This document shows, piece after piece, positions 3,908-37,553 of a stretch of 44,050 bases of DNA (positions within the stretch are counted from its first letter, which is position 1; each line of letters opens with the position of its first letter). This DNA comes from Escherichia phage BEU33: the sequence record OM632667.1; one strand, given 5' to 3'. Position numbers and translations under genes: made by a program. The notes below the pieces were generated by a model. It worked only from the letters and a program-made list of their open reading frames with translations. It was not told the DNA's origin and ran no database searches.

Positions 3908-4309
3908 GTGTCTGGCTCTGGCGAGAACGTGGTGTTTATTGAAGATGAAAGTGTACTCGGTACACCAGTAGACGATATGCCGTTTGCAGACAAGACAGGT
4001 ATCGCACTCTCTGCCGCTGGTATGCTTTATGAAATTCCGTATCTGGCGGACGCTGGTGACGTGTATTTCTCTGTGCAACCGAAAGACACTGAACTTACAG
4101 ATGGCAGCGCAACTATCACTGTCGAAGTTAAGGCGGGTAAAGCACCGTATGCTCTGACCTGGTACAAAGACGGTAAGGAAGTGGTAAACGCCCCGGAAGA
4201 GGCCTTGTCTCTGACGGTTAATGCAGTTGGTGAATACTTCGTTAAAGTTACCGATGCTGATGGTGTAGAGGCTGTCAGTAAAGCTGCGAAGGTCACTAAG
4301 CCCGAATGA
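3908..4309 (+). CDS. Ig-like domain protein, possible capsid accessory/decoration
   Basis: C-terminal motif LTWYKDGKEV..GEYFVKVTDADG typical of bacterial Ig-like domains; start is GTG with no RBS, so start is uncertain. Confidence 0.45.
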   Translation: MSGSGENVVFIEDESVLGTPVDDMPFADKTGIALSAAGMLYEIPYLADAGDVYFSVQPKDTELTDGSATITVEVKAGKAPYALTWYKDGKEVVNAPEEALSLTVNAVGEYFVKVTDADGVEAVSKAAKVTKPE

Positions 4310-4312
4310 TAA

Positions 4313-4340
4313 AAGGCCCCATTAAGGGGCCTTAGTTTTT
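4313..4340 (+). terminator. rho-independent terminator AAGGCCCC-attaa-GGGGCCTT plus T-tract
   Basis: 8-bp GC stem and AGTTTTT directly after the Ig-like gene stop. Confidence 0.75.
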
Positions 4341-4346
4341 AACTGA

Positions 4347-4375
4347 ATAGTACCCTATTATATTGGTGTGTGCAA
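4347..4375 (-). promoter_or_regulatory. promoter-like module TTGCAC-N17-TACTAT on minus strand
   Basis: Same hexamers and spacing as modules at 13582-13610, 37491-37519, 38709-38737; here it faces the terminator, so function is unclear. Confidence 0.3.
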
Positions 4376-4427
4376 ACTATTTATTTACGTATTCCAGTTA
4401 TTCCACTCAATTGTAAATGTTGGAATA

Positions 4428-4443
4428 AACTATTCGAATAGTT
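4428..4443. promoter_or_regulatory. perfect 16-bp palindrome AACTATTCGAATAGTT, candidate operator
   Basis: Exact inverted repeat; overlaps the -35 of the promoter at 4442-4470; half-site ACTATTC recurs in other promoter modules. Confidence 0.5.
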
Positions 4444-4470
4444 GACTTTTCACTGAAAATGTGCTAAGCT
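4442..4470 (+). promoter_or_regulatory. sigma70-like promoter TTGACT-N17-TAAGCT
   Basis: Hexamers and 17-bp spacer read directly; -10 is weak. Confidence 0.45.
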
Positions 4471-4517
4471 CCACCTGAGCTTGTGAAGTATGAACAAGCG
4501 ACCGCGGCGCGGGCAGG
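4465..4517 (+). repeat. 53-bp exact direct repeat, copy 1 (copy 2 at 37402-37454)
   Basis: Identical 53-mer TAAGCTCCACCTGAGCTTGTGAAGTATGAACAAGCGACCGCGGCGCGGGCAGG at both loci. Confidence 0.85.
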
Positions 4518-4677
4518 TAACGGAGCGGGACGTAAGTCCTGAGTGTAGTTACGCTGACGCGTTCGGAAGGGCCATACTCTATTGCTTGTGTAAAAAGTAA
4601 CTGGTTTACTGAGATTACGCCGTTTCTATGTTTAAATTATAAGGACTAGCGCCCCGCTTTAAGGCGGGGCTTTACTT
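4477..4677 (+). ncRNA. candidate small RNA or regulatory leader
   Basis: About 200 nt between promoter 4442-4470 and terminator 4651-4677 with no ORF of 60 aa or more; begins with the 53-bp repeat. Confidence 0.3.
4651..4677 (+). terminator. rho-independent terminator GCCCCGC-tttaag-GCGGGGC plus TTTACTT
   Basis: Perfect 7-bp GC stem followed by T-rich tract. Confidence 0.65.
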
Positions 4678-4694
4678 ATCGAGAAAGGGGAAAC

Positions 4695-5081
4695 ATGAAT
4701 CTTAAAGCAACTGTCGTGGCAGGAGCATGTTTCATCATCCTGGCTTACACACACGGCATTTATCAGTACCGCAGCGGCTGGCACGAAGGCCGCGCTAATC
4801 TCGTTTCGCAGCAACAGCAGAAAGCACAGGCCGAGTTAGCGAAGAAAACACAACGGCAGCAGCAAGATGAATCAAAGGCCGCCGCCGCTGACAACGAAGG
4901 CAAGACGAAATCAGAGGTGATTACCCGTGAAGTCGTTAAGTACATTAAAACGCCTGGTCGCAGCGTGTGCACTTTTGACGATGCTCGCGTCCTGCTCAAG
5001 TCCCGCGCCGTCGCCAACGCCAATTCCATCTCCGGATACGACGATGATGCAGCCGCCGTGCAAGCTGGCGCCACCAAGTAG
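4695..5081 (+). CDS. i-spanin (Rz-like)
   Basis: N-terminal transmembrane segment then Q/A/K-rich coiled-coil-like region; contains an embedded +1 lipoprotein ORF; RBS AAAGGGG. Confidence 0.65.
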   Translation: MNLKATVVAGACFIILAYTHGIYQYRSGWHEGRANLVSQQQQKAQAELAKKTQRQQQDESKAAAADNEGKTKSEVITREVVKYIKTPGRSVCTFDDARVLLKSRAVANANSISGYDDDAAAVQAGATK

Positions 5082-7041: not shown

Positions 7042-7070
7042 GAGAGGGACTTCGGTCCCTCTTTTCATTT
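7042..7070 (+). terminator. rho-independent terminator AGAGGGAC-ttcg-GTCCCTCT plus TTTCATTT
   Basis: 8-bp stem with tetraloop and U tract after capsid gene. Confidence 0.8.
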
Positions 7071-13566: not shown

Positions 13567-13581
13567 CGTTGGTGTAAGTGA

Positions 13582-13610
13582 ATAGTACGCTATTATATTG
13601 GGGAGTGCAA
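13582..13610 (-). promoter_or_regulatory. promoter TTGCAC-N17-TACTAT driving the minus-strand island
   Basis: Hexamers and spacing read on minus strand; -10 ends about 15 nt upstream of the Imm-like start codon. Confidence 0.5.
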
Positions 13611-13717
13611 GTAGTGTGCTAGAATAATTTTGCGCCTAGTGTCGCACACGAAAAGCGGGTGGTTCCCGTCTGGCGCATTTCCTTTAACCAGTAACCTCTT
13701 AACCAAAGGATTAAAGA

Positions 13718-30911: not shown

Positions 30912-32149
30912 TCTAAATCCTCCTCTGTAACTTGATTCCACTCAGGACGTTTGTCATCCGCCGTTGCGACGCATGGCGCACCGGGCTTACGGGTAATGAA
31001 GTCTTTCAGTTCTTCTTCCGGTACAATTTTAACCGCTTCGGTCGGTGTCATAAGAACTACCTTTTGCAGCATAGTACCGTACTTCTCGAATACTGCATCG
31101 GTATCTTTCCACGCACGATTACCCGGGCGTCCTTCAACCAGTTTATACCCCGGCACTTTCTTACCGGAATGTAACGCAGCAGCCATAGCTTTCTCAACCT
31201 TGTCGATGTGCTGGCGCAACAACGGCAACTTCTCATACTCAGCTACGAGTTGCTCTGGCGTAAGCTCAAGTGCAAAGTCGTCCTCCAGTTCTTCCGCCAG
31301 CCCCGCGTTAACGGTTTTTGTACGCGCTGCGCATTGTTCAGAGAACCGACACCACTGACAACCATCTACCGACGGCTTGAAGTCCGACGCTTTCAGGTTC
31401 TTTTTACCCCGGAAATAGGCATCAAGAGCCAACAGCGCCCGTTTCTGTGCAAACTTAGCGAACAGTTCCAGACCTTCAACCGAGATGTCCCACTCCGATG
31501 CACCGCCAGCGTACGGCTGGAAGATGACCAGTCGAACGGTTGTTATGCTATAACGTCTCTTGAGTCGGCGATAAACGCCGAGAGCATAAAGCATAAGCTG
31601 CTTGTTTTCTTTCGCTTCGACACGATGCCGCCCGGTTTTCAGGTCGCAGATGATAAGCATGTGTTCGTCGGTGTTAGCCAGTTCCTGTATGGCAACAAGG
31701 TCAGCAGTTCCGAACGTCTCAACGCCTTCATACCCCGGATGCAATACCTCAGTAAGATTAACACGCATTTCCAGCTTGGCGTAAGTCGCTATATCGATAA
31801 TCGCCTTGCAGTAGTCGGTGTACTTGCGCACCTGCTCAATCATGTCCGCCGTAATCAGTACCGCGCCTTTCATCGGGCTGATTAGTGCCTTAATCTGGCC
31901 TTTGCCTTCATCCAGCACGTAAGCACCGACTTCACGCTCTAACGGCAGCGCAGTTCCGCGAATATAAGCGTTGAGATGGACCTCAGCTATGGTGTGCATT
32001 GCCGTGCCTAATACAGCGGCTTTACCTGACGTGTTAGGGATATCTTTTTCACAGGCCAGTGATGCCGCGCAACTTAGCCACTTTTTAGCCCCTGACGGCG
32101 ACAGTAAGGCATGTACATCGTTATTGCCGCCGCGTTCTTTAAGAATCAT
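30908..32149 (-). CDS. PD-(D/E)xK nuclease, DUF2800 / Cas4-like exonuclease
   Basis: N-terminal LSPSGAKKWLSCAAS, ICDLK (D/E)xK motif, C-terminal Cys cluster CQWCRFSEQC. Confidence 0.65.
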   Translation of the reverse strand: MILKERGGNNDVHALLSPSGAKKWLSCAASLACEKDIPNTSGKAAVLGTAMHTIAEVHLNAYIRGTALPLEREVGAYVLDEGKGQIKALISPMKGAVLITADMIEQVRKYTDYCKAIIDIATYAKLEMRVNLTEVLHPGYEGVETFGTADLVAIQELANTDEHMLIICDLKTGRHRVEAKENKQLMLYALGVYRRLKRRYSITTVRLVIFQPYAGGASEWDISVEGLELFAKFAQKRALLALDAYFRGKKNLKASDFKPSVDGCQWCRFSEQCAARTKTVNAGLAEELEDDFALELTPEQLVAEYEKLPLLRQHIDKVEKAMAAALHSGKKVPGYKLVEGRPGNRAWKDTDAVFEKYGTMLQKVVLMTPTEAVKIVPEEELKDFITRKPGAPCVATADDKRPEWNQVTEEDLE

Positions 32150-32508
32150 CGTAAACTCTCCAAATACAAGTTTAATGCCTGTAACTGTTCTTCTGTAGGA
32201 ATGAAAGAATCATCGCGATGTAAGTCGCTTAACTGTTGCAACATTCCTGCGAACTGACGTCTTGCGTCAACAGCGTCCATGTGATGCTTTTCACTTTTAT
32301 ATATTAATGTTTTCGGGTAATCCTCAAGCCTGCCAGACGATTTATTCACGCGGAGCGCACGAGCTTCATGCACAATGTGAATGTACTTTTTGCCGTTTTG
32401 TAACACAGTAGCTACGCCGCTGCTCTTTCTGCGGTCGCCGACTGTGTAAACCTTGTCGCCACTACGCAGATTAAGCCACCATTTATCGGTCATACCCTGT
32501 TCTCCCAC
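32146..32508 (-). CDS. hypothetical protein
   Basis: ORF translationally coupled in the minus operon. Confidence 0.4.
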   Translation of the reverse strand: MGEQGMTDKWWLNLRSGDKVYTVGDRRKSSGVATVLQNGKKYIHIVHEARALRVNKSSGRLEDYPKTLIYKSEKHHMDAVDARRQFAGMLQQLSDLHRDDSFIPTEEQLQALNLYLESLR

Positions 32509-33330: not shown

Positions 33331-33558
33331 TTACTCGCCGTCGCCTTCTGTAAGGCTATCGTCTATTAATTCAAATTTACCGTTTGAGTGTTGGATAGCT
33401 TCTTGCCCGCAATGGTCGCAAACCACCAGTTTATCGAATCCGTCAAACTCGTCCCCGACTACGCAAGAAAGTACAAATTTATGTTTTGTACATACTTCTT
33501 GATGTTCACCGAAAATTACCCGGAAACATTTAGTTATAGCTCCAGTGATTATGTTCAT
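33331..33558 (-). CDS. small Cys-rich protein, putative zinc ribbon
   Basis: CxxC-type pattern CDHCGQ plus upstream Cys; RBS GAGGTGA; first gene of leftward operon. Confidence 0.5.
   Translation of the reverse strand: MNIITGAITKCFRVIFGEHQEVCTKHKFVLSCVVGDEFDGFDKLVVCDHCGQEAIQHSNGKFELIDDSLTEGDGE
33359..33518. repeat. inverted repeat, copy A of about 160 bp at about 87 percent identity to 34190-34349
   Basis: Hand alignment of the reverse complement of this segment with 34190-34349. Confidence 0.7.
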
Positions 33559-33680: not shown

Positions 33681-33896
33681 ATGCAACCATCCGAACTAGG
33701 CATCCGTGTAGAGCAACGCCGTAAAGAACTCGGCATCTCCCAGCGCCGTCTGGCGGTCCTGACCGGCGTTTCCCAGGGCGCAATTAACCAGCTGGCTCTC
33801 GGTGTAACTCAGGACGTCCGCCCGGCAACGTTGTTTAAACTGGCGGAAGTGCTGGAAGTAGACGCTAAGTGGCTGGCGTTCGGTGAAGGGGCTTGA
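33681..33896 (+). CDS. XRE-family HTH regulator (Cro-like)
   Basis: 71 aa with ISQRRLAVLTGVSQGAINQL helix-turn-helix; RBS AAGGAG; lone plus-strand gene between leftward operons. Confidence 0.75.
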   Translation: MQPSELGIRVEQRRKELGISQRRLAVLTGVSQGAINQLALGVTQDVRPATLFKLAEVLEVDAKWLAFGEGA

Positions 33897-34107: not shown

Positions 34108-34189
34108 TCCAAATCCTCCTCTGTCACTGTCAACATTTCATTCGGTTCGTATATTGTCTTTGGAATCTTGTTATCAGTTATGTTTTCAC

Positions 34190-34349
34190 GCAATTTTCGG
34201 CGCACCGCAAGAAGTATGCACTAACCATAAATTTGTACTTTCTTGCGTGGTGGGGGATGAGTTTGATGGGTTCGATAAACTTATTGTCTGTGACCATTGC
34301 GGGCAAGAAGCTATACAACACTCAAACGGTAAATTCGAACTAATTAACG
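34190..34349 (+). repeat. inverted repeat, copy B; degenerate paralog of gene 33331-33558 without a credible start
   Basis: Encodes FGAPQEVCTNHKFVLSCVVGDEFDGFDKLIVCDHCGQEAIQHSNGKFEL on plus strand but has no ATG or RBS; overlaps the 3' end of the primase-helicase gene. Confidence 0.6.
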
Positions 34350-36542
34350 AATTCTGGTGTTCAGCCTGTAACGACCTGGGATTATCTGATTGTTTTCGTC
34401 AGTACCCGGAACAAGATACCCGGCCTCAACCATTTTCTTAATCTTCCCGCGTTCTATGGCTTCTTTGGAGTTAAACGCCTTTGCGTTGGGGTCTGACTGT
34501 GCGAGCTTATTCGCCGCGGCGACTGTGATGCCTTCGTTGCCGTTGTAGGTTCCTTCCGCCAGTTCAAACGCCGCGAGTATCGTGGCCTCCGAACTGTTGA
34601 CGGCGTTCTCTACGGTTTTACGTACATTTTCTTTACCTTCTTTCGTCAACCCTTCTTCCCGCTCTTTCTCCTCGTCAGTTTTGAACGGCTCGAAACCCCA
34701 CGGCATCAACACAAGCGCCTTGTGTGGTTCAGGCAGGTCCAGGTTTACGATTGTGCCGTATTCCTCTGTGCTACCCAGGAACTCAACCGCTCGGTATTCT
34801 TTAGGTGGCGGCGCTTCACGGAACTGTACCGACTCCAGCACCATGCCAACCGTCTTCTGCTGAGGCCCGTGCTTGAATTTCGAGTGATATACGTTTATCT
34901 GACGGTCGGTTGCACGTTCGATTGTCAGTTCCACATCAACACCCGCATACAGCGCCCCACTGCCGCGTGCTTTCTTTCCACCCTTCGGCGTATGGTGGAC
35001 AACGCCTACTGCGGCTTTAGTTGCATCGCGTACTTCTTTCAGAATGGCGATAACTTTACCCATGCCGATTGCTGTTGATGAACTGTTCTCGTCGAACTTA
35101 TCAATCGTCAGTGCCAGGGTCTGGTTAAGGGTGTCGAACGCAACCATGCCAATTGGCTCGTCGCCAGCAGTTTCGCGCATTAACTTAATCAGGCTTTTAA
35201 GTTTGCCGACTTCGCCCATATCGATGACATGTACATAATCTTTACCTTCCTCGCCGTATTTAGCCGCGAGCGCATCAATACGTGTACGTGTGGCTGCCCC
35301 ACCCTCGCCGTCGATATAGAAATGGTGACAACGCTGGGTGTCAGCCCCTGCAAACCGGTATCCGGCGGCGCTCAGGTACATCATCCCCAGCGTATAGAAT
35401 GATTTGTACGTGCCCGATTCTCCGACGATACCCCAGATACAATCCGACGGCATGTACCCCTCAACGACGAAATCAGCCTTTACCGGCTCCGGTAACTCGT
35501 CCTCCTCTGAGTCCTCGTCGTCTTCCAGGTCGTCGAGGCTGCATGAGACAGATTCACGCGCCCCCCAACCGATGGCCTCTGCGACTTCACTGAACGGCAG
35601 CCCGGTCGCATCGCACGCGTACTTCCACACCTCTTTCGGTGACAGGCCTTCTGTCGCCGTAATGTCTGTGTCGTGAATCATGGTTACGTTTGGCGCTTCA
35701 TACCCCTCGCGCGGGAAGCACAGCAGGAAGTCGTCCGGGCGCGGTGTCGGGTCGCTGTAGTTTTCAGCATGTTCCGGTGTGGCTGGCATCTTAAGGCCGC
35801 GCGGCGTCATGACGCCGCCGTACTCAAACGCCAGTGCTTCAAACGCGTCTGTAAACGCGGTGCGCAGTTCTTCCGGTATCTGGTAATCCGATGCGCTGCT
35901 AACGTCAACGGCTGGGATGCCTTCCAGTAACTCGTTCGGGTCGATCAGGTCGTTGCGGCGCGACCAGATAACGGTAGCGCCGACCGGCGGCAGGTACATC
36001 GGCTGCGACAGAGTGAACCCGCTGCGGTCCGCACCCATGCCTTTGAAGAAGTGCTCCAGCAACCCATGACGAACACGGATGATATCACCACCCTCAACTG
36101 GGCGGGCCAGCGGCATGACGACGCGAAAGCGAGGCGACTCATCGGTATGTGATGCCGTGGTGTAGAGACACATCGCCCGGCGGCTGCGATTAACCAGGCG
36201 CACCGCTTCCTGGTACTCTTCCGGTGTTGCACTGTCGAAGTCCAGATACGCCAGCGACGATTTGCTCACAGACGCGTCACAGCGATAGAAGAAGCCTTTA
36301 CGCGCTTGTTTAAAGCCACCGGTTTCCGGGTCTTTTACGGTGCTGTGTGTAGAATCGCACGCGGCCGTGATATAACCGGGCGCAGTCTTGGGGTTAATCC
36401 CGTCACGAACGGCATCGAGCGGCTGGATTAACTCTTTCAGGTCGTCCAGTGTTGCCGTGTGTGCGGTTCTGACATTTATATCCTTTTTCCCCGCCCGCGC
36501 GTTGCGGCGTGACCACGAGTAGGATAAAATTACATCGGACAT
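34344..36542 (-). CDS. DNA primase-helicase (AEP-type primase-polymerase domain plus RecA-like ATPase)
   Basis: DxD motif in AYLDFDS, SHTD motif, Walker A GESGTYKS, Walker B-like MVAFD. Confidence 0.6.
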   Translation of the reverse strand: MSDVILSYSWSRRNARAGKKDINVRTAHTATLDDLKELIQPLDAVRDGINPKTAPGYITAACDSTHSTVKDPETGGFKQARKGFFYRCDASVSKSSLAYLDFDSATPEEYQEAVRLVNRSRRAMCLYTTASHTDESPRFRVVMPLARPVEGGDIIRVRHGLLEHFFKGMGADRSGFTLSQPMYLPPVGATVIWSRRNDLIDPNELLEGIPAVDVSSASDYQIPEELRTAFTDAFEALAFEYGGVMTPRGLKMPATPEHAENYSDPTPRPDDFLLCFPREGYEAPNVTMIHDTDITATEGLSPKEVWKYACDATGLPFSEVAEAIGWGARESVSCSLDDLEDDEDSEEDELPEPVKADFVVEGYMPSDCIWGIVGESGTYKSFYTLGMMYLSAAGYRFAGADTQRCHHFYIDGEGGAATRTRIDALAAKYGEEGKDYVHVIDMGEVGKLKSLIKLMRETAGDEPIGMVAFDTLNQTLALTIDKFDENSSSTAIGMGKVIAILKEVRDATKAAVGVVHHTPKGGKKARGSGALYAGVDVELTIERATDRQINVYHSKFKHGPQQKTVGMVLESVQFREAPPPKEYRAVEFLGSTEEYGTIVNLDLPEPHKALVLMPWGFEPFKTDEEKEREEGLTKEGKENVRKTVENAVNSSEATILAAFELAEGTYNGNEGITVAAANKLAQSDPNAKAFNSKEAIERGKIKKMVEAGYLVPGTDENNQIIPGRYRLNTRIR

Positions 36543-36600: not shown

Positions 36601-36834
36601 TTATTCCAGGTCTTCTAAAGTAGCGGTCATTCCGCGAACTTCAGCAAAGGCACTATATTTCCCGCCAACATTTTTCACGACGCCAGATTTAACCAGCACT
36701 TTTAACGACCCTTCAATAATGACGGAACTATAGTACTTAAAATAACTGCGGCGCAAGTCGATAACGCTGCACGACCCTTTTTTACGTGTCAACGAAACGA
36801 CCGCCGTAAATACGCGTGACTGAAACTCGGTCAT
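36601..36834 (-). CDS. hypothetical protein
   Basis: 77-aa ORF coupled to the downstream primase operon. Confidence 0.4.
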   Translation of the reverse strand: MTEFQSRVFTAVVSLTRKKGSCSVIDLRRSYFKYYSSVIIEGSLKVLVKSGVVKNVGGKYSAFAEVRGMTATLEDLE

Positions 36835-37001
36835 TTCACGTTCTCCTTAATCCACGCTTCCACTTTCTCCGGGTCGAACGTACCGGGCTGCCGGCGACCC
36901 ATAATGCGGATACAACAATCAGGGAACCTCCCACTCTTTAACCAGTTATTAAGCGTGCGGCGAGTAACCCCGATACGCTCAGCTACTTCATTCTGTGTCA
37001 T
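36831..37001 (-). CDS. AlpA/Xis-like HTH DNA-binding protein
   Basis: MTQNEVAERIGVTRRTLNNWLKSGRFP pattern; ATG 37001 with GAGGG RBS preferred over TTG 37034. Confidence 0.55.
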   Translation of the reverse strand: MTQNEVAERIGVTRRTLNNWLKSGRFPDCCIRIMGRRQPGTFDPEKVEAWIKENVK

Positions 37002-37401
37002 TCTCAAACCCTCATTATCAGTTAACGAAACCAAGTATACATTGCGAATAATGGGAAATCAAACATAATCGCACCTATTGACATTATGAAAATCTTCGTT
37101 TAAGGTGCTTCTATATCTTAGTTACTTTGATTCCTGTTCACCTTGTAATACCTGCTTGAAACGCAGCGGCGCCAAAGCGCCAGCGAAGTGTTAAGCAGCA
37201 GATTACTGAACATAAGAATTACCGTAACTTTCCTTCCGTAGTATCTCTGGTTGCCCTGGGCAAGCTCTATTCTCATCGGCAGCATATCTCTTAAGTATCT
37301 GATAATTAAAAGTTTCTATAGTTGCCGTGAGCAAGGTAGAGAGTACTTCACTCCGCTGGGGTGGGCTAACGCCCACCCACTGCGTTGCGTACTCTTTTAA
37401 G

Positions 37402-37454
37402 TAAGCTCCACCTGAGCTTGTGAAGTATGAACAAGCGACCGCGGCGCGGGCAGG
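37402..37454 (+). repeat. 53-bp exact direct repeat, copy 2
   Basis: Identical to 4465-4517; lies in the divergent intergenic region 37035-37553. Confidence 0.85.
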
Positions 37455-37490
37455 AAACGAAAGAATCACAACGGCAACGTAACTATTCTC

Positions 37491-37519
37491 TTGCACACCC
37501 CAACATAATAGGATACTAT
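37491..37519 (+). promoter_or_regulatory. promoter TTGCAC-N17-TACTAT
   Basis: -10 ends about 35 nt upstream of ATG 37554. Confidence 0.5.
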
Positions 37520-37553
37520 TCACTTATCGAAACGAGACAGAGGAGTGAGGGTT

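What the first reader, a model, noticed from the sequence alone, without database searches (positions are those of the whole stretch)
4428..4680. Candidate small-RNA locus carrying a 53-bp exact repeat shared with the early divergent region
The 354-bp gap between the Ig-like gene and Rz has no ORF of 60 aa or more but has a promoter (4442-4470) overlapped by the 16-bp palindrome, then an exact 53-bp sequence (4465-4517) that recurs identically at 37402-37454, and a terminator at 4651-4677, predicting a roughly 200-nt RNA. The repeat can fold into two mutually exclusive hairpins (AAGCTC-cacct-GAGCTT or GCTTGT-N9-ACAAGC), which is typical of attenuator or riboregulator elements. It also contains an ATG followed by identical codons for MNKRPRRGQ in both copies, though translation looks less likely. 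Exact identity over 53 bp in two distant intergenic regions implies selection or recent conversion.
Basis: seen in the sequence. Interest (0 to 1): 0.7.

Follow-up and report, generated by a model that had tools for sequence, protein, structure and literature searches.

The report
Conserved structured leader RNA of phage late genes
The gap in front of the Rz gene holds an undescribed, non-coding, structured RNA element kept by most phages of this subfamily at the head of their head-and-lysis operon, while the "second copy" that drew attention is only a 53-base insertion private to this one phage.

Summary
In detail: 4465-4517 recurs exactly at 37402-37454, between a TTGACT-17-TGcTAAGCT promoter and a hairpin plus T-tract at 4651-4677.

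The repeat itself means little. Phage BEU35 is 100% identical across 1,058 bp around 37402 except for exactly this 53-bp gap. None of 368 related records carries the insertion. Copy B has no -35 box and stops halfway up a helix.

The locus is the real finding. The window is a Kagunavirus genome (Guernseyvirinae). Positions 4477-4584 encode a two-hairpin RNA (P1, P2) with a conserved tail. 180 phage records carry this version, and a CM search found the 269-record Jerseyvirus version; by eye Cornellvirus has one too. Across 44 distinct sequences, 97.6% of cells pair and 5 pairs show compensatory changes (12 of 23 pairs with Jerseyvirus sequences). Slid controls give 36-46%.

About a quarter of relatives carry a full paralog, with its own promoter, at the head of the other late operon.

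The embedded ORF is lost or frameshifted in many members.

There is no match in Rfam, HK022 or 5,426 E. coli genomes.

Most likely function (inferred, about 35%): a cis-acting leader that lets RNA polymerase read on into the late genes, as HK022 put does.

The parts
4313..4333 (.). Bidirectional terminator hairpin that ends the upstream operon (terminase, portal, head morphogenesis, Hoc-like gene)
   Evidence: Listed on both strands by the scan. The SETP7 locus has an equivalent hairpin.
4428..4443 (.). 16-bp perfect palindrome AACTATTCGAATAGTT, centred at about -41.5 from the inferred start site; a candidate regulator site specific to the late-locus promoter
   Evidence: Read directly. Exact in 44 of 53 distinct late loci; 21 of the 22 promoter-bearing early paralogs have a different sequence at that place. 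Its half-site GAATAGT occurs 11 times against 4.4 expected, mostly at promoters.
4442..4470 (+). Sigma-70-type promoter with extended -10: TTGACT, 17-nt spacer ending TGc, TAAGCT
   Evidence: both hexamers and TGn are conserved while the rest of the spacer varies. Annotators of PVP-SE2 marked a promoter at the equivalent place. The start site, about 4477, is inferred and not mapped.
4479..4499 (+). P1 hairpin: GCUUGU, loop GAAGUAUGA, ACAAGC; it begins at about +3 of the transcript
   Evidence: all cells pair, with U-A to U-G changes. Type T5 and L058 have an 8-bp version with a different loop. The Jerseyvirus version has an unrelated 5-bp hairpin, ACGCU/AGCGU, at the same place.
4502..4566 (+). 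P2: a long irregular hairpin with a lower stem (CCG-c-GGCGC), a middle stem, a purine-rich internal loop (GGAG / GAGUGUAG) and an apical 5-6-bp stem
   Evidence: 96-97% of cells pair. One pair shows C-G, U-A and A-U. The apical stem has up to 4 pair types. Six sequence types fold the same way.
4567..4584 (+). Conserved, mostly single-stranded tail: AAGGGCC-AUAnUCUAUUG
   Evidence: GGAAGGG and UCUAUU are conserved across types T1-T5 and, in part, the Jerseyvirus version.
4585..4650 (+). A/U-rich spacer, nearly invariant among late loci, with a small hairpin at 4597-4609 whose loop varies
   Evidence: Variability map of 50 distinct late loci. The early loci share the motif GUUUCUAU at a similar distance from the core.
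4651..4680 (+). G+C-rich hairpin (GCCCCGCU/GGCGGGGC) with tail UUUACUUAUC, 15 nt before the Rz start codon; terminator-like in this phage
   Evidence: Scan. Compensatory changes keep the stem: GCCCTGC/GCAGGGC in L007 and GCCCGAC/GTCGGGC in STP03. The Jerseyvirus and Cornellvirus versions keep the hairpin but lack a U-tract.
4695..5081 (+). Rz-like spanin gene, the first gene of the operon behind the leader (then Rz1, scaffold, major capsid and onward to 11111)
   Evidence: ORF list and annotations of relatives. The scan lists no promoter between 4470 and 4695.
37402..37454 (+). Copy B: a private 53-bp insertion identical to 4465-4517 (-10 box, P1, and the first 16 nt of the 5' strand of P2); probably non-functional
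37079..37300 (+). Resident early-locus module of this phage: TTGACA-17-TAAGGT promoter plus a different structured leader ('RNA-X'). In about a quarter of relatives a full paralog of the 4442-4584 module replaces it.
   Evidence: The covariance model R1 does not match it.

Best explanation
WHAT IT IS (shown; about 0.9). Positions 4442-4680 are a promoter-plus-leader module that belongs to Guernseyvirinae phages. It consists of:
- a sigma-70-type promoter with an extended -10;
- a non-coding RNA that begins with hairpin P1 at about +3;
- two nucleotides later, a long irregular hairpin, P2;
- a conserved tail (GGAAGGGCC...UCUAUUG);
- an A/U-rich spacer;
- a G+C-rich hairpin directly in front of the Rz ribosome-binding site.

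Behind it lie Rz/Rz1, scaffold, major capsid and further head genes. The 53-bp 'second copy' at 37402 is a recent, strain-private ectopic duplication of -10 to +41 of this module. It has no sign of function.

HOW IT WORKS (inferred; about 0.35). The P1-P2 core acts in cis on the RNA polymerase that has just made it. It makes that polymerase resistant to pausing and termination. Polymerase can then pass the hairpin at 4651-4677 and later terminators (for example 7042-7063) and express the late structural genes. This is the logic of the put RNAs of phage HK022, with no homology to them.

Transcripts that do stop at 4677 would give the roughly 200-nt RNA as a by-product, like lambda 6S RNA. The palindrome at about -41.5 would set the timing at initiation through a phage regulator.
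For: Structure. Types T1-T5 and the L058 variant all fold into P1 + P2.
- 19 sequences: 97.1% of cells paired.
- 44 distinct sequences: 97.6% paired, 5 pairs changed on both sides (59 cells); 0 of 500 shuffles reach the paired percentage, double-change cell count or covariation score (the count of such pairs is matched by most shuffles). Slid controls pair 36-46%.
- With Jerseyvirus sequences added, 12 of 23 pairs show compensatory change.

Conservation and spread.
- 4412-4711 is the most similar stretch between the window and Jerseyvirus SP-101: 94-100% against 54-93% in the flanking genes, capsid included.
- 180 records carry this version. 269 carry the Jerseyvirus version, which the model finds at the same locus (35 bits, E=4.5e-9).
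- Read by eye only (the covariance model does not detect it), Cornellvirus SP-038 has promoter, 5' hairpin, long hairpin, a GGAAGGG tail and a hairpin before Rz.

Not coding.

Evidence for cis action at the head of operons.
- The scan lists no promoter between the hairpin and Rz, so Rz and the capsid genes need read-through.
- In the three versions examined the RNA starts right at the promoter.
- The unit that moves is promoter + P1 + P2 + tail, without the 3' hairpin. In relatives it replaces the RNA-X module at the head of the other rightward operon, which here holds holin, lysozyme and terminase genes.
- That gives one element per late operon, as with putL and putR (PMC9378689).
- Both operons contain internal terminator-like sites.
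- Pfam scans of about 50 of the window's proteins showed no Q-, N- or AlpA-type antiterminator.
- The base of P2 and the tail are almost invariant between versions that differ elsewhere. This fits contact with a conserved partner such as host RNA polymerase.
Against: There are no functional data. The start site, 3' end and read-through level are all inferred.
- The model of this RNA has no match in HK022, so any likeness to put is by analogy only.
- The element is about 90 nt, against about 70 for put.
- About three quarters of genomes have a different leader (RNA-X) at the other operon, so a shared mechanism there is assumed, not shown.
- The 3' hairpin is a weak terminator or none in the Jerseyvirus and Cornellvirus versions. 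Simple leaky read-through could therefore suffice without any antitermination.
- The spacer 4585-4650 is nearly invariant, and the cis model does not explain this.
- Part of the conservation peak against SP-101 may reflect horizontal exchange of the module between genera rather than purifying selection. Most Jerseyviruses carry the other version.
- An unrecognised phage protein cannot be excluded.
Confidence: 0.35

Rival explanations
1. A trans-acting small RNA. The roughly 200-nt transcript ended at 4677 would be the functional product, acting on host or phage mRNAs or on a protein. Read-through into Rz would be incidental. The short Shiga-toxin-phage late-promoter transcript StxS is a precedent for this.
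For: The locus has its own strong promoter and, in this phage, a terminator-like 3' hairpin. The spacer 4585-4650 is nearly invariant and largely unpaired, which would suit a seed region. The phage encodes a weak ProQ-C-like protein: 25 bits, below the Pfam cut-off of 27. The StxS precedent is PMC7547250, taken from its abstract.
Against: The 3' hairpin has no U-tract in the Jerseyvirus and Cornellvirus versions, so a defined 3' end is not a family feature. The early paralogs share the core but not the spacer or the hairpin. No complementarity longer than 11 nt to the phage genome was found. The tail UUUACUUAU is a poor Hfq site (own knowledge). Rz and the capsid genes still need read-through.
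Confidence: 0.2
2. An RNA processing and stability element. P2 would be an RNase III-type cleavage site like the irregular hairpins of T7 early RNA. P1 at +3 and the hairpin before Rz would protect RNA ends, tuning the stability and translation of the late mRNA.
For: P2 is a roughly 20-bp irregular helix with a conserved internal loop. A 5'-terminal hairpin starts at about +3. A G+C-rich hairpin without a U-tract is kept just before the Rz ribosome-binding site in all three genera. That 5'-terminal hairpins stabilise E. coli mRNAs, and that T7 uses RNase III sites, is own knowledge.
Against: Stabilisers and RNase III sites usually tolerate much sequence change. Here the base of P2 and the tail are almost invariant. 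This model does not explain why the promoter and core move together as one unit. The apical stem is short for a classical T7-type site.
Confidence: 0.2
3. A protein-dependent antitermination or activation site. A phage protein would load onto RNA polymerase at this promoter (Q or AlpA type) or bind the leader RNA (N/nut type). The RNA structure would be the binding site or a passive by-product.
For: The layout of promoter, leader, terminator and lysis/late genes matches lambda PR'-6S-tR' and the AlpA-controlled promoter (PMC9371919). A palindrome sits next to the -35 box. -10-like hexamers with A2/T6 lie at the inferred start: GAGCTT here, and an exact second TACGCT in the Jerseyvirus version. 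A small HTH_17 protein (36831-37034) is encoded beside the early locus.
Against: No Q, N or AlpA family match was found among about 50 proteins. The 67-aa HTH protein has no significant match to any solved structure (best E=0.074, an unrelated DNA-binding protein), and Pseudomonas AlpA has HTH residues numbered to at least 142 (PMC9371919). Q-type systems do not need a conserved RNA fold, yet this one covaries. The palindrome is missing from the early paralog promoters. P1 differs completely between versions.
Confidence: 0.15
4. A transcription attenuator or riboswitch that switches between alternative hairpins, or that senses a ligand to control the 4651 hairpin.
For: The region is a structured leader in front of a terminator-like hairpin. 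AGCGGGAC (4524-4531) could pair with the 5' arm of the terminator (6-7 bp, read by eye).
Against: The hairpin AAGCTC/GAGCTT includes the -10 box and is not kept in the Jerseyvirus version. The possible anti-terminator pairing is not preserved in the chimera L037 or in the early paralogs. There is no Rfam match. The full-length fold is not unusually stable (z = -1.7).
Confidence: 0.07
5. A small protein gene encoding the 36-aa MNKRPRRGQ... peptide, as some genome records annotate (Bas76_0007, PVPSE2_53).
For: The ORF is intact in most late loci of this version, and several records annotate it.
Against: There is no ATG in 22 instances. Six instances are truncated to 8-9 aa (five by frameshift, one by a contig end). 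The frame changes after 6-9 residues in all early paralogs. Indels in the family are not multiples of three, while base pairing is preserved. The only upstream purines are a weak GAAG.
Confidence: 0.03

Closest known systems
HK022 put RNAs (putL, putR): protein-independent, cis-acting processive antiterminators
   Same: Two adjacent stem-loops begin about 3 nt after the start of a sigma-70 promoter. Paralogous copies can head two different operons, with compensatory differences between copies. The operons downstream contain terminators. No dedicated antiterminator protein is recognisable. (put features from PMC9378689; this RNA.)
   Different: There is no detectable homology: the model R1 finds nothing in HK022. 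This element is about 90 nt, not about 70. The host is a virulent siphophage, not a lambdoid prophage. Most genomes have only one copy plus an unrelated leader (RNA-X). Function is untested.
Lambda PR'-qut-6S RNA-tR' and the AlpA-controlled alpB promoter (Q-type antitermination)
   Same: A strong promoter is followed by a short leader and a terminator-like hairpin directly in front of lysis and late genes. A short terminated RNA is the expected by-product. A -10-like hexamer lies at the inferred start (PMC9371919).
   Different: Those systems depend on a DNA-binding protein and do not need a conserved RNA fold. Here the fold covaries and no Q or AlpA homolog was found.
StxS, the regulatory small RNA made by early termination of the Shiga-toxin phage late transcript
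   Same: It is a leader transcript of a phage late promoter that ends at a terminator before the late genes and could have a second role in trans (PMC7547250, abstract seen).
   Different: There is no sequence relation, no good Hfq-type U-tail, and no target was found. The 3' hairpin is not a terminator in other genera.
RNase III processing hairpins of phage T7 early RNA (own knowledge)
   Same: An irregular hairpin of about 60 nt with an internal loop lies in a phage leader transcribed by host polymerase.
   Different: The sequence is far more conserved, the upper stem is shorter, and the element is tied to its promoter as one mobile unit. Cleavage is untested.

Membership tests
HK022 put RNA | Two adjacent stem-loops in the nascent transcript, close to the promoter | tested here: met
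   P1 at about +3 and P2 two nt later, in all six sequence types and in the Jerseyvirus version. The start site is inferred.
HK022 put RNA | Sequence and structure homology to putL/putR | tested here: not met
   R1 searched with filters off over the whole HK022 genome gave a best hit of 7.9 bits, E=3.7. Rfam has no put model: nothing was found in the HK022 immunity region.
HK022 put RNA | One copy at the head of each operon that it serves | tested here: inconclusive
   The late-operon copy is present in all 180 + 269 records of the two versions. A second copy is found in only 42 of 180 records (222 places). The other genomes have RNA-X in that slot.
HK022 put RNA | Acts in cis without phage protein, binds the beta-prime zinc-binding domain, suppresses termination and pausing | not testable with these tools
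   This needs in vitro transcription, reporters and rpoC mutants.
Q/AlpA-type late-promoter antitermination site | Promoter, then a terminator, upstream of late or lysis genes | tested here: met
   Promoter 4442-4470, hairpin with T-tract 4651-4677, Rz at 4695. The hairpin lacks a U-tract in the Jerseyvirus and Cornellvirus versions.
Q/AlpA-type late-promoter antitermination site | A -10-like element in the initially transcribed region that causes a sigma-dependent pause | tested here: inconclusive
   GAGCTT (A2, T6) lies at +1 to +6 here, and an exact second TACGCT lies 9 nt after the -10 box in the Jerseyvirus version. The start site is unmapped, and none is clear in Cornellvirus.
Q/AlpA-type late-promoter antitermination site | A Q- or AlpA-like protein encoded by the phage | tested here: not met
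   No such Pfam family was found among about 50 proteins. The 67-aa HTH_17 protein has no significant match to any solved structure. Not every ORF was scanned.
Any Rfam family | Match at or near the gathering score | tested here: not met
   The whole window at gathering threshold gave only int-alpA at 13629-13693. For 4250-4750 at E up to 10, the best hit was 19.9 bits against a threshold of 50.
Small protein gene | Reading frame and start codon conserved across homologs | tested here: not met
   no ATG in 22 instances; truncation to 8-9 aa in six; the frame differs in the paralogs.
Attenuator with mutually exclusive hairpins | Both alternative hairpins are transcribed and conserved | tested here: not met
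   The first hairpin's 5' arm is the -10 hexamer. The Jerseyvirus version has a direct repeat there, not an inverted one. Only P1 is conserved.
Terminated trans-acting sRNA (StxS-like) | An intrinsic terminator that defines the 3' end across the family | tested here: not met
   It is listed as terminator-like only in this version and not in SETP7 or SP-038.

The most novel reading that the evidence does not exclude
Guernseyvirinae phages (Kagunavirus, Jerseyvirus, Cornellvirus) carry a new family of RNA-only, put-like processive antiterminators, unrelated in sequence to put. The promoter plus the P1-P2 RNA would form a portable module that makes host RNA polymerase termination-resistant. It would be installed at the head of one or both late operons and exchanged between loci and genera by recombination. 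That would be the first such element in virulent phages, and a second, independent solution to protein-free antitermination.
Probability: 0.25. Interest if true: 0.8.

Novelty: new variant of a known kind. Interest (0 to 1): 0.55.

Why it matters
Kagunaviruses and Jerseyviruses are among the most often isolated E. coli and Salmonella phages considered for therapy and food safety. In the searched library, no paper held the terms for a transcriptome study of these phages.

This locus is the only visible entry point for transcription of Rz, scaffold and capsid. It also holds the best-conserved non-coding sequence in the comparison made here.

- If the RNA modifies RNA polymerase, it would be a second, independent family of protein-free antiterminators, and a compact portable part for synthetic biology.
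- If it is a trans-acting or processing element, it is still an undescribed RNA family, with more than 400 members in public phage genomes and no Rfam entry.

For annotation, the 36-39-aa 'hypothetical proteins' called here in many records are very probably not genes.

Tried and rejected
- **Known RNA families.** Rfam at gathering and at permissive thresholds, plus a tRNA/tmRNA scan, found nothing at the locus.
- **Host or plasmid origin.** There was no match in 5,426 complete E. coli genomes.
- **Pseudoknot.** A pairing between the P1 loop (AGUAUG) and CAUACU in the tail was rejected. The tail position varies freely (C, G, U, A) while the loop stays fixed.
- **boxA.** A reading of the tail (ACUCUAUUG) as a boxA-like Nus-factor site was rejected, because its second position varies freely.
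- **Sigma-dependent pause element.** The P1 loop hexamer AAGTAT fits NANNAT here, but type T5, L058 and the Jerseyvirus version have nothing equivalent.
- **Antisense target in the phage.** The longest complementarity found was 11 nt.
- **Long-range closing helix.** The pairing between the RNA's 5' end and 4630-4645 seen in the full-length fold is not supported. Most relatives have G at 4638, and P1 covaries.
- **RNA-X as a diverged homolog.** The model does not detect it. A by-eye likeness of the apical region (GAAACG-AGC, hairpin, GA-GUG) remains unproven.
- **AlpA-like role for the 67-aa HTH protein.** It matches only generic HTH families.
- **Wasted scan.** One IMG/VR scan used a promoter pattern that was one base too long. 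The repeat was done correctly.
- **L046.** This unrelated phage contig has the same promoter string, but its leader is not homologous.
- **Origin of the insertion.** The junctions of the 53-bp insertion do not fit a simple microhomology template switch or a deletion from a full paralog. Its mechanism is unresolved.
Full report
**1. The observation**

The window is a complete or near-complete Kagunavirus genome (Guernseyvirinae). The 4300-4700 region matches 180 E. coli, Salmonella, Raoultella and Shigella phage records at 95-99% identity.

The sequence 4465-4517 recurs exactly at 37402-37454, and the match extends to 58 nt at 98%.
- No ORF of 60 aa or more lies between the Hoc-like gene (ends 4309) and Rz (starts 4695).
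- The palindrome AACTATTCGAATAGTT lies at 4428-4443.
- The promoter reads TTGACT, a 17-nt spacer ending TGc, then TAAGCT, at 4442-4470.
- A hairpin with a T-tract lies at 4651-4677.

The consensus scan misses the promoter because TAAGCT matches only 3 of 6 positions. Comparison supports it all the same. The -35 box is TTGACT in 73 of 76 distinct loci, TGn is present in every true locus, and the rest of the spacer varies.

**2. The second copy is a private insertion**

The 511-bp region around copy B matches 368 phage records, and none contains the 53 bp. Phage BEU35 is identical at all 1,058 aligned positions around it, apart from one gap of exactly 53 bp.

Copy B has ACTGCG where a -35 box should be and AAG where TGn should be. 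It ends at 4517, within the 5' strand of helix P2. It therefore carries the -10 box, P1 and a fragment of P2, and the covariance model aligns it only over that part.

The exact identity reflects recent origin, not selection. I could not work out how the insertion arose, and an assembly artefact cannot be excluded.

**3. What the repeat led to: a family of structured RNAs**

Exact-pattern scans of IMG/VR and of metagenome contigs returned about 100 instances. Many genomes carry a true second copy in the early divergent region. It has its own TTGACT promoter and a full-length but diverged body (types T2-T5). In the phage database, 42 of 180 records have a second place detectable by BLAST.

These paralogs differ from the late copy (T1) by substitutions that keep base pairs and by indels that are not multiples of three.

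All six sequence types fold into the same shape:
- P1, a hairpin starting 2-3 nt after the inferred start site;
- two unpaired nucleotides;
- P2, a roughly 65-nt irregular hairpin with a purine-rich internal loop (GGAG / GAGUGUAG);
- a tail, GGAAGGGCC...UCUAUUG.

Pair counts support this fold:

| Alignment | Cells paired | Pairs changed on both sides | Controls |
|---|---|---|---|
| 19 sequences | 97.1% | 5 | 0 of 500 shuffles reach the percentage |
| 44 distinct sequences | 97.6% | 5 (59 cells) | slid controls 36-46% |
| with Jerseyvirus sequences | not counted | 12 of 23 predicted pairs | not run |

One pair in P2 occurs as C-G, U-A and A-U. The apical stem shows up to four pair types.

P1's sequence was partly fixed by my search patterns. 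Even so, it shows U-A to U-G changes, an 8-bp variant in T5 and L058, and an unrelated 5-bp hairpin at the same place in the Jerseyvirus version.

**4. Not a peptide, and not the proposed attenuator**

Among 107 instances the MNKRPRRGQ ORF has no ATG in 22. Six further instances are truncated to 8-9 aa, five by frameshift and one by a contig end. In every early paralog the frame changes after the first residues.

In the Jerseyvirus version the same place holds a direct repeat, TACGCT-AAC-TACGCT.

**5. Distribution and conservation**

Between the window and Jerseyvirus FSL SP-101 the genomes are 68-92% identical where they align. Positions 4412-4711 are 94-100% identical, above the capsid gene at 81-93%.

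One caveat applies. Most Jerseyviruses (269 records) carry a different version of the locus. Part of this peak may therefore reflect exchange of the module between genera.

The Jerseyvirus version (SETP7, Jersey and others) sits at the same place. It shares ACCGCGG...UUCGGAAGGG and is found by the model at 35 bits, E=4.5e-9.

The covariance model did not detect the Cornellvirus sequences; the following likenesses are by eye.
- FSL SP-038 has a promoter, a 5' hairpin, a long hairpin, a GGAAGGG tail and a hairpin before Rz.
- SaI_NFG_5577 shares only the UCUAUU motif and that hairpin.
- A more distant Klebsiella phage, 37P2, has a different region.

Nothing similar exists in 5,426 E. coli genomes, in Rfam or in HK022. 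In the literature searches run, no paper held the terms for a transcriptome study of these phages. The one genome paper read, and the PVP-SE2 record, report only predicted promoters and terminators and, in the record, a small 'hypothetical protein'.

**6. Context**

The upstream operon ends at the bidirectional terminator 4313-4333. The scan lists no promoter between the 4651 hairpin and the Rz start codon 4695, and the gap left is only about 15 nt. Rz, Rz1, scaffold and capsid therefore depend on read-through from 4442. This is an inference.

The 3' hairpin is kept by compensatory changes. It has a passable U-tract only in this version. The scan does not call it a terminator in SETP7 or SP-038.

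In relatives, the early paralog replaces this phage's RNA-X module next to the 67-aa HTH_17 gene. It stands at the head of the rightward operon, which in this window runs through small genes, holin, lysozyme and terminase.

The unit that is exchanged runs from the -35 box to about 35 nt past UCUAUUG. That is promoter plus core, without the spacer or the 3' hairpin.

Other signs of recombination between the two loci:
- L037 is a late locus with a T2-type P2.
- L087 and L088, from one contig, share a P1-loop variant.

The palindrome next to the -35 box is specific to the late locus. Its half-site GAATAGT is enriched at the phage's promoters.

**7. Mechanism**

Shown: this is a conserved, structured, non-coding RNA element tied to its promoter at the head of late operons.

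Inferred: I consider a cis-acting, put-like effect on the transcribing polymerase the most likely reading, at about 0.35. Five points favour it:
- the element starts at the promoter;
- it consists of two adjacent stem-loops;
- it can be present once per late operon;
- it travels together with its promoter;
- no antiterminator protein is recognisable (put features from PMC9378689).

Against it: there is no homology to put, the hairpin is weak or non-terminating in other genera, and the invariant spacer is left unexplained.

| Rival | Estimate |
|---|---|
| Trans-acting small RNA | 0.2 |
| RNase III or stability element | 0.2 |
| Protein-dependent Q/AlpA/N-type site | 0.15 |
| Attenuator or riboswitch | 0.07 |
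| Peptide | 0.03 |

**8. Verdict**

The repeat that motivated the finding is ordinary: a strain-private insertion. The locus itself holds an undescribed RNA family of real interest. It has more than 400 public members, sound covariation and a testable role in late-gene control.

Noticed in passing
window 37079-37300: A second structured leader, 'RNA-X', follows a TTGACA-17-TAAGGT promoter. Its central hairpin has three unrelated sequences (window/BEU35, SP-101 type, L112) that all stay paired, while its flanks are conserved. It occupies the slot that early paralogs of the late RNA take in other phages.
   Followed up: partly
window 13597-13693: Rfam int-alpA RNA matches at 13629-13693 (36.6 bits against a threshold of 35.8). 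It begins right after a TTGGGG-16-TGcTAGAAT promoter, in front of the tail operon (13718 onward). All three rightward late operons therefore start with a structured leader.
   Followed up: partly
window 4340-4375, 13575-13610, 37490-37535: A repeated promoter-like element, TTGCAC-N17-TACTAT, overlaps an AATAG-N4-CTATT palindrome. The copy at 4340-4375 points leftward straight into the terminator 4313-4333. Relatives such as Bas76 have a 204-nt minus-strand gene there that this phage lacks.
   Followed up: partly
window, 11 sites (e.g. 4429, 4436, 30707, 33600, 33645, 37482, 37515): The heptamer GAATAGT occurs 11 times against 4.4 expected. Nearly all copies lie at promoter regions, which suggests the site of a phage transcription regulator.
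   Followed up: no
window 33359-33529 and 34180-34350: A 171-nt inverted repeat (85% complementary) flanks a 650-bp segment that holds a plus-strand Cro/CI-type HTH gene (33681-33896) inside the minus-strand replication operon.
   Followed up: no
window 32146-32508 (-): A 120-aa protein has a weak match to Pfam Phage_ProQ_C_like (E=3e-5, 25 bits, below the cut-off of 27). It is a possible RNA-binding protein in a phage with at least three structured leaders.
   Followed up: no
L046 4434-4462 (-): An unrelated A+T-rich IMG/VR phage contig with no match in the phage database carries the same promoter string, TTGACTTTT-N6-AAAT-N-TG-N-TAAGCT. It sits in front of a leader of about 250 nt and a small-terminase, HNH, large-terminase operon.
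   Followed up: partly
L016, L019, L023, L032, L042 (early loci, about 190 nt after the promoter): A CTCA/CACT microsatellite, GCTCACTCACTCACTC, varies in copy number (3 units against 6 in L042). It lies between the early paralog RNA and a GGTGCC-TTCG-GGCACC hairpin.
   Followed up: no
window 4490-4600; Bas76_0007, PVPSE2_53, UTI89UKE1_018 and others: Many public records annotate a 36-39-aa 'hypothetical protein' inside this RNA. The comparative evidence says it is not a gene.
   Followed up: yes
L049 9575-9653: This IMG/VR contig ends in a Nextera adapter sequence (CTGTCTCTTATACACATCT) right after the early-locus promoter, so the assembly was not trimmed.
   Followed up: no
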